Program-made: the position numbers and the translations under genes | Notes under the pieces: model-generated | Seen by the model: the letters and a program-made list of their open reading frames with translations, nothing else | Told to the model about the DNA's origin: nothing | Database searches by the model: none | Shown here: positions 30,908-45,731 of the stretch, in pieces | How positions within the stretch are numbered: position 1 is the first letter of the stretch | Layout of the letters: every line of letters begins with the position of its first letter | IMG/VR virus record: IMGVR_UViG_2718217795_000004 | Length of the DNA stretch: 47,262 nucleotides | Direction: 5' to 3' (one strand) | Source: a virus | Taxonomy: Duplodnaviria; Heunggongvirae; Uroviricota; Caudoviricetes

Positions 30908-30946
30908 GACAAAATCAATATAAACAGCCCCTCCGGAGAGGGGCTG
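30908..30946 (-). terminator. GC-rich hairpin terminator (bidirectional-looking)
   Basis: Stem AGCCCCTC / GAGGGGCT with loop CGGA; on the minus strand followed by TTTATATTGATTTTG. Confidence 0.5.
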
Positions 30947-31337
30947 GAGAGTGGCGCTATGTGCCATTGCATGGTGCCGGGTGCCTCCCGGTGAATTCAG
31001 TACCAGCACCTGAATCCGCGATTATCCCATATACCTACTCGCTGATTGCCCCTCCGCACAGGGGGATTCACCATGCCAGTTTCTTTTAACAAACTCCCCG
31101 CAAACCAGACAACAGTCAACCGCCTGAATTGTGAAGTATTTAAAAATTTCTCCCGCTAACTGATACCCGGCTAACAGTCTGGCGTTTTCTTTTTCAGCAA
31201 CGGGAAAGCAACAACCACCACACCCGCCACCAGCACACCGTCAGCCAGCACTGACATTATCCGGCTGCTGCAATGCCACTCACAAAAACAGTAAGCAATC
31301 ACTTTTTACCGTAACAAGTGATAATCCAGATATGTAT

Positions 31338-31804: not shown

Positions 31805-31878
31805 CGCGCTGTACTGGATTCGAACCAGTGACCGATTGCTTAGAAGGCAATTGCTCTGTCCGGCTGAGCTAACAACGC
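31805..31878 (-). tRNA. tRNA-Arg (anticodon UCU)
   Basis: Hand-folded cloverleaf: acceptor GCGTTGT/ACAGCGC, D-stem GCTC/GAGC, anticodon stem ATTGC/GCAAT with loop CTTCTAA, T-arm ACTGG-TTCGAAT-CCAGT; no encoded CCA. Confidence 0.8.
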
Positions 31879-31978: not shown

Positions 31979-32054
31979 TGGTGGCCCTTGCTGGATTTGA
32001 ACCAGCGACCTGGCGATTATGAGTCGCTCGCTCTCACCACTGAGCTAAAGGGCC
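31979..32054 (-). tRNA. tRNA-Ile2 (anticodon CAU, ileX/ileZ-like)
   Basis: Cloverleaf with acceptor GGCCCTT/AAGGGCC, anticodon loop CTCATAA, T-arm GCTGG-TTCAAAT-CCAGC, encoded CCA; closely resembles E. coli ileX from recall rather than a Met tRNA. Confidence 0.8.
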
Positions 32055-34843: not shown

Positions 34844-35094
34844 CAGATTGTTGGGATAAACACAACGCTTATTATTAAAAGCGATTAGATAAATTAAATT
34901 TTAATGTTATGCAATTTTACCAGATCACCATAACATCTCGTTTGAAACCACCGAAACAACAACCATATCAATATTGATTATGTTAAAGTGAGTAAATATG
35001 GAAAACAACAAATCTGCACATTACGCTCCTTTTTTATCTGTGATACTTTTTGTTTTATGCTGTGTGTGGGCATTATTTTTATAAAAATATTTAC

Positions 35095-35122
35095 AGATAA
35101 AATAAACCCGCCGAAGCGGGTT
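35095..35122 (-). terminator. intrinsic terminator downstream of hok
   Basis: Minus-strand AACCCGC-TTCG-GCGGGTT hairpin followed by TATTTTATCTG. Confidence 0.5.
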
Positions 35123-35190
35123 AAGTGCGGGTGCATTGAGGATGCCTGACACATCAGAGGTGGCGAGGGATTTCTCCCTCGCCGGGTCTC

Positions 35191-35346
35191 TTACTCCTCA
35201 GGTTCGTAAACTGTGAAGACAGCGACCTCCGTCTGGCCGGTTCGGATTCGTACCTCGCAGAGGTCTTTCCTCGTTACCAGTGCCGTCACTATGACGGTTA
35301 AACAGATGACGATCAGGGCGATTAACATCGCCTTTTGCTGCTTCAT
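35191..35346 (-). CDS. hok: Hok-family type I toxin (HokD/RelF-like)
   Basis: 51 aa MKQQKAMLIALIVICLTVIVTALVTRKDLCEVRIRTGQTEVAVFTVYEPEE, hallmark Hok sequence; AAGGAG SD; 3' stem-loop GGCGAGGGA-GAAAT-CCCTCGCC. Confidence 0.85.
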   Translation of the reverse strand: MKQQKAMLIALIVICLTVIVTALVTRKDLCEVRIRTGQTEVAVFTVYEPEE

Positions 35347-35603
35347 AGCCTGCTTCTCCTTGACCTTTCGGTCCGTAAGAGGCTAATCTCTATGTGTCGC
35401 ATAGATATGGCCTCAGATTAATGTTAAACGTCTTGCAGGACGCGTAATGTTACCTGGGGCTTTTCTCTATCTGCCGTTGGTGTTCATGCCCGAGGCAGAT
35501 AGCCTCAAGCACCCGCAGTCATTCTACTTAACTAAGATTTCCCCGCAAACCGTTTTTGTCCAGCACAATAAATATCCAACTAAACCAATGGAGTTCGCTG
35601 TAT

Positions 35604-35783
35604 TTACCGCCAGTATTCAATGCACATGACCGCCATGAACACCCCTAAAAAAAGGGCATTTATATATCCAAATATTAATATCAAAACATCAACTTTTTCC
35701 ATATACCTTGCTGTGAAGATGATGGGCATACATGATACGAACAACCAGAACGCAACAAACAAAAACTGCAATGCGTTTTTCAT
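35604..35783 (-). CDS. small two-TM membrane protein (59 aa)
   Basis: ATG at 35783 preceded by a strong SD (TAGGAGGAATA); two hydrophobic helices; AT-rich. Confidence 0.5.
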   Translation of the reverse strand: MKNALQFLFVAFWLFVSCMPIIFTARYMEKVDVLILIFGYINALFLGVFMAVMCIEYWR

Positions 35784-36069
35784 TATTCCTCCTACAATCA
35801 ATGCGCAATTACATTTAAACACACCTCAATTTGGCCGGACATATAAATATCTAAACTAGAAAAAATCACTTACATAGCGTTACAAACTCTTTAGTCTAAA
35901 GGTTCATCGTAAAACATTCCCCATACTTATCAGTCCGTTCCGTGCCAGGTAGCTTATTGCCTTATCTGGCAACCTATAATCAGGTTTCCGCTTTTTCAGT
36001 TGGCTGGTCGTTTAACCGACATAGTTAACCCATTAATCTAGTTGCCGGATGTTGGTGGATTTTCGCGTT

Positions 36070-36327
36070 TTAGTTGTTCATAAAAGTGCACAGCTTTAAC
36101 CAGTTCTTCTGATGTAACCGGGACTGGCGGGGCAGTGAATAAGGCCTGAATTTCATAGTTCGGACTGTCGTTACAATCCTCTTTTTTCGGTACATATTTC
36201 CAGTCACCAGACCACTACTTCCCCTGAAAGTCCGTAACGCCTTTTTTTTCACGTAGCGATATCGCCATGCCACTGTTTTTGCTTGCCCCGCCGTTTCATG
36301 CCCTTCCTGATAATTAACCTCGCTCAT
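36070..36327 (-). CDS. hypothetical basic protein (85 aa)
   Basis: Start ATG overlaps the upstream gene stop (ATGA); contains an A8 homopolymer run; coding status uncertain. Confidence 0.35.
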   Translation of the reverse strand: MSEVNYQEGHETAGQAKTVAWRYRYVKKKALRTFRGSSGLVTGNMYRKKRIVTTVRTMKFRPYSLPRQSRLHQKNWLKLCTFMNN

Positions 36328-45334: not shown

Positions 45335-45529
45335 ATGAGATATGACAATGTTAAACCATGTCCATTTTGTGGTTGTCCATCAGTAACGGTGAAAGCCATT
45401 TCAGGATATTACCGAGCGAAGTGTAACGGATGCGAATCCCGAACCGGTTATGGTGGAAGTGAAAAAGAAGCACTCGAAAGATGGAATAAACGAACCACTG
45501 GAAATAATAATGGAGGTGTTCATGTATAA
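45335..45529 (+). CDS. ralR: RalR (Lar) restriction-alleviation / type I toxin DNase
   Basis: 64 aa MRYDNVKPCPFCGCPSVTVKAISGYYRAKCNGCESRTGYGGSEKEALERWNKR..., matching Rac RalR from recall. Confidence 0.8.
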   Translation: MRYDNVKPCPFCGCPSVTVKAISGYYRAKCNGCESRTGYGGSEKEALERWNKRTTGNNNGGVHV

Positions 45530-45731
45530 AATTACCGCCACTATTGAAAAGGAAGGTGGCACTCCTACTAACTGGACAAGATATTCAAAATCTAAACTAA
45601 CGAAATCAGAATGCGAAAAAATGCTCTCAGGTAAAAAAGAAGCAGGCGTTTCCAGAGAGCAGAAAGTAAAACTGATAAATTTTAATTGCGAGAAACTTCA
45701 GTCCTCGAGAATTGCATTGTATTCAAATTAA
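45522..45731 (+). CDS. ydaC: YdaC-like small protein (69 aa)
   Basis: ATG overlaps the ralR stop; size and position as in Rac. Confidence 0.6.
   Translation: MYKITATIEKEGGTPTNWTRYSKSKLTKSECEKMLSGKKEAGVSREQKVKLINFNCEKLQSSRIALYSN

What the first reader, a model, noticed from the sequence alone, without database searches (positions are those of the whole stretch)
35191..35402. Hok-type type I toxin with a short overlapping leader ORF (mok-like)
The 51-aa ORF is an unmistakable Hok family member. A 19-codon upstream ORF ends in TGA overlapping the hok ATG (CTATGAAG), consistent with mok-style translational coupling, and the mRNA 3' end has a fold-back stem-loop. Unlike the Qin hokD/relF arrangement no relBE genes are upstream, so regulation would have to rely on a Sok-like antisense RNA on the plus strand, which I cannot confirm from sequence alone.
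Basis: partly seen in the sequence, partly recalled or inferred. Interest (0 to 1): 0.45.

Follow-up and report, generated by a model that had tools for sequence, protein, structure and literature searches.

The report
Ordinary prophage hok/sok toxin-antitoxin locus
This is a complete but already well-known hok/mok/sok type I toxin-antitoxin cassette in a Rac-like E. coli prophage; its only unusual feature is that the leader reading frame stops exactly at the toxin's start codon.

Summary
Window 35191-35346 (-) encodes a 51-aa Hok/Gef peptide (Pfam E=2.6e-22). It is identical to RefSeq 'HokD' WP_000813256.1 and differs from K-12 HokD by A46V.

Unlike K-12 Qin hokD, whose leader is replaced by relBE, this copy keeps the whole regulatory leader:
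- a weak hok promoter and an mRNA 5' end at 35514;
- tac/fbi 5'-3' pairing and an anti-SD/mok-SD pairing;
- a 19-codon mok (35402-35343) ending in AUGA on the hok start;
- an intrinsic terminator at 35122-35105.

The Rfam sok model scores 100.8 bits. The annotated sokC (K-12) and sokW (phage 933W) both map to + strand 35396 to about 35468, with promoter TTGACC-18-TAATCT and a terminator hairpin.

The locus is 92% identical to hokW-mokW-sokW of 933W/Sp5, which has been characterised experimentally. Full-length copies occur in 4026 of 5426 complete E. coli genomes, so the element is already known.

The short mok is a common allele (803 genomes). It fits R1 genetics, where mok translation is needed only up to the hok start region.

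One side observation: the first ~18 nt of Sok and the start of mok form a sharp hypervariable island. This island explains why mok occupies all three reading frames among near-identical loci.

The parts
35521..35548 (-). Candidate hok promoter: -35 TTGCGG (35548-35543), 16-nt spacer, -10 TAGAAT (35526-35521). The -10 hexamer occupies -12..-7 relative to the predicted mRNA start G35514.
   Evidence: Read directly from the sequence. Position 1 of the Rfam model aligns to 35514. The -10 region is conserved in 933W, phage Rac and HannyBb. The -35 is weak (3/6), so the consensus scan did not report it. Not verified experimentally.
35098..35514 (-). Full-length hok mRNA (about 417 nt): leader, mok, hok, 3' UTR with fbi, terminator.
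   Evidence: Rfam sok model covers 35514..35344. Fold energy -170.1 kcal/mol, z = -8.3 against shuffles. 92-96% identical over 94-98% of its length to phage hok loci including 933W hokW.
35503..35514 (-). tac (translational activator) element, the 5'-terminal 12 nt GGGUGCUUGAGG.
   Evidence: Pairs with fbi (nt 374-386) in the full-length minimum-energy fold. Pairs with nt 53-59 (GCCCC anti-SD region) when the fbi is removed, and forms a local hairpin (nt 7-13 with 19-25) in other truncations. This matches the three R1 conformations described in PMC9841398.
35456..35459 (-). Anti-SD (ucb) CCCC that sequesters the mok Shine-Dalgarno in the closed mRNA.
   Evidence: mok SD nt 101-104 pair with nt 56-59 in the full-length fold.
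35411..35414 (-). mok Shine-Dalgarno GAGG.
   Evidence: Sequence. GAGG is unchanged in all but one of the 74 loci (GATG in one locus), although it borders a hypervariable stretch.
35343..35402 (-). mok-like leader ORF: 19 codons plus TGA, with the stop overlapping the hok ATG (AUGA).
   Evidence: The ATG is homologous to the annotated mokW/mokC/mok start codons. The exact 45-nt allele occurs in 803 of 5426 E. coli genomes.
35356..35360 (-). hok Shine-Dalgarno AGGAG.
   Evidence: Sequence. Invariant among relatives; this is also the point where homology to K-12 Qin hokD begins.
35191..35346 (-). hok toxin ORF, 51 aa (HokD-type, V46 allele).
   Evidence: Pfam HOK_GEF E=2.6e-22. RefSeq annotates the identical sequence as hokD WP_000813256.1.
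35129..35141 (-). fbi (fold-back inhibition) element, CCUCAAUGCACCC.
   Evidence: Pairs with the 5' 12 nt in the fold. The tac/fbi duplex energy is -29.7 kcal/mol.
35105..35122 (-). Intrinsic terminator of hok mRNA (AACCCGC-UUCG-GCGGGUU followed by UAUUUUAU).
   Evidence: Terminator scan.
35360..35389 (+). Candidate Sok promoter: -35 TTGACC (35360-35365), 18-nt spacer, -10 TAATCT (35384-35389). It lies antisense to the hok SD and the end of mok.
   Evidence: Read from the sequence. It lies 7 nt upstream of the position to which the annotated 5' ends of sokC and sokW map. It falls below the consensus scan's threshold because the -10 matches only 3/6. sokW has its own promoter, shown by mutagenesis in PMC8621323.
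35396..35468 (+). Predicted Sok antisense RNA (about 70 nt): a 5' tail complementary to the mok start codon and SD, then a long hairpin (35409-35461) and UUUUCUCU.
   Evidence: Mapping of annotated sokW (933W) and sokC (K-12) through alignment gives 35396 -> 35464/35470. Fold energy -26.1 kcal/mol, z = -4.1. The Rfam sok hit spans it. Strand logic was checked on K-12 and 933W. Expression was not tested.

Best explanation
The locus is a complete, canonical hok/mok/sok type I toxin-antitoxin cassette of the lambdoid-prophage hokD/hokW lineage. It lies in the early-right (nin-type) region of a Rac-like prophage at ttcA. The proposed mechanism is inferred by homology to R1 and hokW-sokW, supported by structure predictions made here.

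1. A weak promoter makes a ~417-nt hok mRNA starting at G35514.
2. In the full-length RNA the 5' tac element pairs with the 3' fbi element, and the mok Shine-Dalgarno is held by an upstream anti-SD. The RNA is therefore neither translated nor bound by Sok.
3. Slow 3' trimming removes fbi. tac then captures the anti-SD and frees the mok ribosome-binding site.
4. Ribosomes translate the 19-codon mok, terminate at UGA inside AUGA, and thereby open or re-initiate at the hok start. The 51-aa membrane toxin is made.
5. A short, unstable antisense RNA (Sok, + strand 35396 to about 35468), made from a stronger promoter inside the mok/hok-SD region, pairs with the mok start region. It blocks mok, and hence hok, translation and marks the duplex for RNase III.
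6. When Sok synthesis stops, the toxin is made.

The physiological role is less certain. For the closest studied relative, Sok loss on prophage induction and faster lysis and phage release were shown. Prophage retention or exclusion of other phages remain possible.
For: Toxin: Pfam HOK_GEF E=2.6e-22; the identical sequence is annotated hokD in RefSeq; HokD is reported toxic when expressed (preprint 10.1101/2025.08.07.668861).

Leader and Sok: Rfam RF01794 scores 100.8 bits against a cutoff of 59, over the full model length 1-157. The same model hits the annotated sokC, sokB and sokW regions on the hok strand. Annotated sokC and sokW both map to 35396 -> 35464/35470 (+). Sok hairpin z = -4.1.

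mRNA switch: the full-length fold has z = -8.3 with nt 1-12 paired to nt 374-386 and the mok SD paired to CCCC at nt 56-59. After fbi is removed (cut at nt 363), the 5' end pairs with nt 53-59 and the mok SD pairs with nt 133-136. These are the tac/fbi, SD/ucb, tac/ucb and SD/dcb pairings described for R1 (PMC9841398).

mok: the ATG is invariant and the SD is unchanged in all but three of 74 sampled loci, within a hypervariable stretch. In about 127 full-length relatives the ORF from that ATG always reaches the hok start. R1 genetics shows that mok translation is required up to the hok start region and is dispensable beyond it.

Closest homologue: hokW-sokW, 91.8% nucleotide identity, was shown to be a working type I TA with its own sokW promoter. 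Its sokW RNA disappears and HokW is produced after mitomycin C (PMC8621323).

Abundance: full-length locus in 4026 of 5426 E. coli genomes; this mok allele in 803.
Against: Nothing here measures transcription, processing, translation or toxicity of this particular copy. Neither promoter passes the consensus scan. Chromosomal hok loci of E. coli were reported unable to mediate post-segregational killing (Pedersen and Gerdes 1999, as cited). Minimum-energy folds of a 417-nt RNA are only indicative, and the refolded structure depends on where the 3' end is cut. The mok frame here differs from the majority in-frame type, and its coupling efficiency has not been tested.
Confidence: 0.88

Rival explanations
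1. The cassette is structurally intact but silent, like the K-12 chromosomal hok loci. On this view the 2-nt deletion that creates the short mok frame weakens or abolishes coupling, so the copy is a disarmed passenger of the prophage.
For: Relative to the majority type (mok ATG 57 nt upstream and in frame with hok; 108 of ~130 sampled contexts), this allele has a 2-nt deletion after ATGC plus a 1-nt insertion in the GAAA hairpin. Chromosomal hok loci were reported inactive in post-segregational killing. No expression data are available for this copy.
Against: All regulatory elements are present. The allele is found at >=99% identity in about 800 genomes and in 15 distinct IMG/VR contexts, so it is not a private lesion. 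In R1, stop codons in mok downstream of the hok start have no effect; only stops upstream of it abolish toxicity. Here the stop lies just past the hok AUG. Retention of the Sok promoter and hairpin would be unnecessary for a dead toxin.
Confidence: 0.1
2. The 19-codon ORF is a chance open frame. On this view hok is translated directly from its own AGGAG, and Sok acts only through RNase III cleavage or by occluding the hok ribosome-binding site.
For: A 19-codon open frame has roughly 0.4 probability by chance. The peptide sequence is not conserved and the frame differs among close relatives. hok has a strong SD of its own.
Against: The ATG and its GAGG are conserved in the middle of the most variable part of the locus. 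In all sampled full-length loci the frame stays open to the hok start, in whichever of the three frames it lies. Predicted Sok ends at 35396 and does not reach the hok SD or AUG (35360-35344), so it covers only the mok start region. In R1, mutations of the mok start codon abolish Hok production.
Confidence: 0.03

Closest known systems
hokW-mokW-sokW of Stx2 phage 933W / Sakai prophage Sp5 (AF125520; Takada et al. 2021, PMC8621323)
   Same: 91.8% nucleotide identity over 94% of the mRNA. It has the same leader, including the 16-18-nt extension of the Sok hairpin that K-12 hokC lacks, and the same tac/fbi. The fbi is conserved, but 933W diverges over the window's terminator hairpin (35122-35105), and the match covers only query nt 3-402. 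The Sok 5' end maps to the same position. It is prophage-borne. It has been shown experimentally to be a type I TA whose Sok RNA disappears on induction.
   Different: mokW is a 70-aa in-frame N-terminal extension of HokW (ATG 57 nt upstream). Here mok is a separate 19-codon ORF ending at the hok start (56 nt upstream). The Hok C-terminus differs (FVDYESEK against FTVYEPEE). In 933W the locus lies at the far end of the genome record (58.4-58.7 kb of 61.7 kb). Here it lies between the replication genes and the Q antiterminator. The first ~18 nt of Sok differ at several positions.
hokD (relF) of the K-12 Qin cryptic prophage
   Same: The coding sequence is nearly identical, with one amino-acid change (A46V). 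The hok SD, 3' UTR, fbi and terminator are the same. RefSeq gives this copy the same gene name. The general prophage position is also the same, upstream of a DUF968/YdfU-type gene and Q.
   Different: In K-12, homology stops at the hok SD. Everything upstream (hok promoter, tac, anti-SD, mok, Sok gene) is replaced by relBE. The K-12 copy is therefore a truncated derivative, and the window holds the complete form.
hokC (gef)/mokC/sokC of E. coli K-12
   Same: The leader is homologous throughout, and the mok ATG aligns. Both have the same Sok -35 TTGACC (K-12 sequence read from the alignment). Annotated sokC maps onto the predicted Sok. Rfam sok scores 118 bits there and 101 here.
   Different: mokC is in frame with hokC (69 aa). 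The Sok hairpin is 16-18 nt shorter. The 3' UTR is unrelated (IS186 lies immediately downstream in K-12).
hok/mok/sok (parB) of plasmid R1, the paradigm
   Same: It has the same set of elements and the same predicted conformational switch. mok has 19 codons upstream of the hok start in both.
   Different: R1 mok continues for 70 codons overlapping hok in the other out-of-frame register, with its ATG 58 nt upstream (numbering). HokW, a near-relative of this Hok, is only 44% identical to R1 Hok. R1 is on a plasmid and has a proven post-segregational killing role.

Membership tests
[quoted passage not shown] | Small hydrophobic Hok/Gef toxin peptide (~50 aa) | tested here: met
   Pfam PF01848 E=2.6e-22, profile positions 1-42 of 42.
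[quoted passage not shown] | cis-encoded antisense RNA gene (Sok) overlapping the mok translation-initiation region, with its own promoter and terminator | tested here: met
   Rfam RF01794 scores 100.8 bits. Annotated sokC and sokW map to 35396-35464/70 (+). Promoter TTGACC-18-TAATCT read from sequence. Hairpin plus U-tract, z = -4.1. Met by homology and sequence only; transcription was not tested.
[quoted passage not shown] | Leader ORF (mok) whose translation reaches the hok initiation region | tested here: met
   19-codon ORF 35402-35343 with a GAGG SD; its stop overlaps the hok AUG. The start codon is homologous to annotated mokW/mokC/mok.
[quoted passage not shown] | Long-range 5'-3' pairing (tac/fbi) that closes the full-length mRNA | tested here: met
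   nt 1-12 pair with nt 374-386 in the minimum-energy fold. Duplex energy -29.7 kcal/mol; whole-RNA z = -8.3.
[quoted passage not shown] | mok SD sequestered by an upstream anti-SD in the closed form; tac captures the anti-SD after 3' truncation | tested here: met
   Predicted in the folds of full-length and fbi-less RNA, and consistent with the Rfam consensus 5' hairpin. The result depends on the chosen 3' cut point.
[quoted passage not shown] | 3' processing of hok mRNA, RNase III cleavage of the Sok duplex, membrane depolarisation by Hok | not testable with these tools
   Known for R1 and partly for hokW-sokW from the literature. Not measured for this copy.
K-12-type hokD/relF arrangement (relB-relE-hokD operon, Qin) | hok preceded by relBE, with the hok leader, mok and sok absent | tested here: not met
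   The window keeps the full leader. K-12 aligns only from the hok SD onward. No relBE lies within 12 kb in the identical RefSeq locus. The coding sequence is hokD-type, but the arrangement is the complete ancestral one.
hokW-mokW-sokW type (933W/Sp5) | mok as an in-frame 70-aa N-terminal extension of Hok | tested here: not met
   The in-frame reading is closed by a TAG. Here the mok ATG is 56 nt upstream of the hok ATG, not 57. All other parts of the locus are homologous at about 92%.

The most novel reading that the evidence does not exclude
The first ~18 nt of Sok, together with the mok SD-ATG spacer and mok codons 2-6 (window 35386-35413), form a hypervariable island in an otherwise almost invariant locus. 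Mean diversity there is 0.28, against 0.017 at hok third-codon positions and 0.05-0.07 in the rest of the leader and the 3' UTR. There are 16 haplotypes with a median of 7 differences. The most novel reading still open is that the Sok recognition domain is under diversifying selection, so that co-resident prophage hok/sok copies (median 2, up to 9 per genome) do not cross-repress one another. This would resemble immunity specificities. On this reading, mok's frame plasticity (all three frames, including this minimal 19-codon form) is a tolerated by-product. I found no description of this in the papers searched, and the recent Hok survey explicitly left Sok and mok unanalysed.
Probability: 0.25. 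Interest if true: 0.35.

Novelty: already known. Interest (0 to 1): 0.12.

Why it matters
It matters little as a discovery. The element is annotated in RefSeq, is present in about three quarters of complete E. coli genomes, and belongs to one of the best-studied antisense-RNA systems. Three practical points follow.

1. The gene name 'hokD' hides the fact that most E. coli copies are complete hok/mok/sok cassettes, unlike the truncated K-12 reference copy.
2. The natural 19-codon mok ending at AUGA is an independent, population-scale confirmation of the R1 result that mok only has to be translated up to the hok start.
3. The Sok gene and mok are not annotated in these genomes. The Rfam 'sok' model reports the hok strand, so automated annotation gives the wrong strand for the antitoxin.

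Tried and rejected
1. The sigma-70 consensus scan of 35050-35700 found no promoter on either strand. I do not take this as evidence of absence.

2. The terminator scan found the hok terminator but not the Sok terminator.

3. I tested whether co-resident copies avoid sharing a Sok 5' haplotype. Only four same-genome contig pairs were available in IMG/VR; three differ and one is identical. That is what random draws would give, since the chance of identity is about 0.13 from the haplotype frequencies. In complete genomes the window's allele occurs twice in about 80 genomes (883 places in 803 genomes). The test is therefore inconclusive and gives no support for exclusion.

4. I considered that the Rfam hit on the - strand meant Sok lies on the hok strand. 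I rejected this because the same model hits the hokC, hokB and hokW sense strands, while the annotated sokC, sokB and sokW lie opposite.

5. I considered that the 2-nt deletion is a private inactivating lesion. I rejected this because of its frequency.

6. I did not retrieve the R1 sequence itself. The R1 comparison rests on the numbering and description in PMC9841398. No protein-database, structure-prediction or metagenome searches were needed.

Full report
**What is in the sequence.** On the minus strand, 35346..35191 encodes MKQQKAMLIALIVICLTVIVTALVTRKDLCEVRIRTGQTEVAVFTVYEPEE. It matches Pfam HOK_GEF over the whole profile at E=2.6e-22. Immediately upstream, ATG 35402 opens a 19-codon frame (MRHIEISLLRTERSRRSRL) whose TGA (35345-35343) overlaps the hok ATG as ATGA. 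A GAGG lies 8 nt before that ATG.

**Where it sits.** A 901-nt stretch around the locus is 100% identical to at least 16 complete E. coli chromosomes, where the ORF is annotated hokD, WP_000813256.1. The annotated neighbourhood is a Rac-like lambdoid prophage next to ttcA. It runs intR, xisR, rcbA, ralR, recT, recE, kilR, a repressor/Cro pair, replication genes, hok, then DUF968, RusA, antiterminator Q, two tRNAs, lysis genes, trkG and terminase. hok is co-oriented with the early-right operon, between the replication genes and Q. No relBE is present.

**Relation to K-12 hokD.** In MG1655 the order is relB-relE-hokD-rem-ydfU. Aligned to the window, K-12 is almost identical from the hok Shine-Dalgarno (AGGAGAAGCAGGCTATG) to the terminator. 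The only amino-acid change is A46V (GCT->GTT). Everything upstream in K-12 is relE sequence. The window's upstream region instead aligns with the hokC/sokC and hokB/sokB leaders. The window therefore holds the complete form of the cassette, of which K-12 hokD is a 5'-truncated remnant.

**The Sok gene.**
- The Rfam sok model (RF01794) matches 35514..35344 on the minus strand over its full length, at 100.8 bits against a gathering score of 59.
- That model begins with the hok mRNA 5' end and ends at the hok AUG, so it describes the hok sense strand. On K-12 hokC, K-12 hokB and 933W hokW it also hits the hok strand, while the annotated sokC, sokB and sokW lie on the opposite strand inside the hit.
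- Carrying the annotated sokC and sokW coordinates through alignments puts the Sok 5' end at window 35396 (+) in both cases, and the 3' end at 35464 and 35470.
- Seven nucleotides upstream of 35396 lies TAATCT (35384-89). Eighteen nucleotides further up lies TTGACC (35360-65), which overlaps the complement of the hok SD.
- The 75-nt RNA folds into a long hairpin (35409-35461) followed by UUUUCUCU, at -26.1 kcal/mol and z = -4.1. Its unpaired 5' end is complementary to the mok start codon, and the mok SD (35411-35414) lies in the 5' arm of the hairpin stem.
- The consensus promoter scan did not call this promoter or the hok promoter, because each has one weak hexamer.

**The mRNA switch.** The 417-nt RNA from 35514 to 35098 folds at -170.1 kcal/mol, z = -8.3.
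- In that fold the 5'-terminal 12 nt pair with nt 374-386 (35141-35129), and the mok SD pairs with CCCC at nt 56-59.
- When the 3' end is cut before the fbi (at nt 363), the 5' end pairs with nt 53-59 and nt 13-21 pair with nt 40-48. This is the hairpin in the Rfam consensus. The mok SD then pairs with nt 133-136.
- Other cut points give a local 5' hairpin.
- These are the tac/fbi, SD/anti-SD, tac/ucb, SD/dcb and metastable structures described for R1 (PMC9841398).
- An intrinsic terminator follows at 35122-35105.
- A -10 hexamer TAGAAT occupies -12..-7 relative to 35514, with a poor -35 TTGCGG 16 nt upstream.

**How common and how well known it is.** The 426-nt locus is found at >=80% coverage in 4026 of 5426 complete E. 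coli genomes, with a median of 2 and up to 9 places per genome. It is also found in 105 phage records. In phage 933W the homologous locus (91.8% identity) was annotated hokW, mokW and sokW in the GenBank record itself. In Sakai prophage Sp5, hokW-sokW was shown experimentally to be a type I TA. HokW is toxic, and sokW expressed from its own promoter neutralises it, with partial dependence on RNase III and Hfq. After mitomycin C, sokW RNA disappears, HokW accumulates in the inner membrane in a RecA-dependent manner, and phage release drops by half without the locus (PMC8621323). A 2025-26 survey reports hok in almost 80% of Enterobacteriaceae genomes and enrichment in prophages.

**The mok variant.** Close relatives differ in the distance from the mok ATG to the hok ATG.
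- 57 nt: in frame, giving a 70-aa N-terminally extended Hok, as in annotated mokW and mokC.
- 58 or 55 nt: a 67-68-aa overlapping frame, as in R1 and in the annotated mok of a Rac phage record.
- 56 nt: this 19-codon ORF ending in AUGA.
- The differences come from a 2-nt indel just after ATGC and a 1-nt indel in a small GAAA hairpin before the hok SD.
- Among about 130 distinct IMG/VR contexts the counts are 108 in-frame (70 aa), 1 in-frame but with a shortened 56-aa product, 15 short, 3 overlapping and 3 without a hok leader.
- The exact 45-nt sequence around the window's mok start occurs in 803 of 5426 genomes.
- In every full-length locus the frame opened by the conserved ATG stays open at least to the hok AUG.
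- For R1, stop codons in mok upstream of the hok start abolish toxicity, whereas stops downstream do not. R1 mok also has 19 codons before the hok start.
- The window's allele is thus a natural minimal mok, compatible with coupling by termination and re-initiation or by unfolding of the hok initiation region. This step is inferred, not shown.

**Side observation.** In an alignment of 65 distinct full-length loci, column diversity is 0.00-0.02 in hok (0.017 at third-codon positions), 0.05 in the leader and 0.07 in the 3' UTR. It rises to 0.28-0.34 in 35386-35413, which is the first ~18 nt of Sok plus the ~10 nt before its start. Sixteen haplotypes differ by a median of 7 positions, while the mok ATG stays fixed and the GAGG stays nearly fixed. 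This island is the source of the mok frame changes. Whether it reflects selection for Sok specificity among co-resident copies could not be decided: three of four same-genome pairs differ, as expected by chance.

**Verdict.** The finding is real and correctly interpreted, and the missing Sok gene is located. It is an ordinary, already-described prophage hok/mok/sok cassette. Activity of this particular copy and its physiological role remain untested.

Noticed in passing
window 35386-35413 (both strands): A sharp hypervariable island among otherwise near-identical hokD/hokW-type loci. It covers the mok SD-ATG spacer, mok codons 2-6, the first ~18 nt of predicted Sok and the ~10 nt before its start. 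Diversity is 0.28-0.34, against 0.017 at hok third-codon positions, with 16 haplotypes. Indels here put mok in all three frames.
   Followed up: partly
window 35208-35205 (-), hok codon Y47 plus the next base: The Tyr codon is TAC followed by G, which is the TadA editing motif UACG. K-12 hokC, hokD and hokE are reported to be A-to-I edited at this Tyr to give Cys, with hokD at about 6% (PMC5630033, PMC12214031). The window's only amino-acid difference from K-12 HokD (A46V, GCT->GTT) lies immediately 5' of this motif and could alter the editing loop.
   Followed up: partly
window 35344-35514 (-); L003, L004, L005: The Rfam family named 'sok antitoxin' (RF01794) is modelled on the hok mRNA sense strand, running from the mRNA 5' end to the hok AUG. 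Its hits therefore report the strand opposite to the real Sok gene. This was confirmed on annotated sokC, sokB and sokW. RefSeq annotates neither Sok nor mok at this locus.
   Followed up: yes
window 45528-45706 (-) and about 45335-45529 (+): A second type I toxin-antitoxin pair lies in the same prophage. RalA antitoxin sRNA scores 225 bits in Rfam over the full model length, next to the ralR endonuclease toxin gene.
   Followed up: no
window 30916-31105 (-), 31805-31878 (-), 31982-32054 (-): An STnc100 sRNA homologue (132 bits) and two tRNA genes (annotated tRNA-Arg and tRNA-Ile in the identical RefSeq locus) lie just downstream of the prophage Q antiterminator gene.
   Followed up: no
window 35366-35373 (-): The small GAAA-loop hairpin just upstream of the hok SD exists in two versions among relatives: GACC-GAAA-GGUC here and UGCC-GAAA-GGCA in 933W. 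They differ by compensating changes and one nucleotide of length. The two versions combine freely with the two versions of the mok start, giving spacings of 55, 56, 57 and 58 nt.
   Followed up: partly
window 35604-35822 (-) and about 35904-36327 (-): An unannotated 72-aa hydrophobic ORF with no Pfam match lies directly upstream of the hok promoter. Further upstream, RefSeq marks a frameshifted hypothetical gene. This suggests some decay of this part of the prophage.
   Followed up: no
L064 and two other IMG/VR loci: The K-12-type relE-hokD junction (leader replaced by relE) is rare among viral contigs: about 3 of ~130 contexts against about 127 full-length. In complete E. coli genomes the K-12-like partial match (query nt 161-417 only) appears mainly in K-12-derived strains in the spread listing.
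   Followed up: partly
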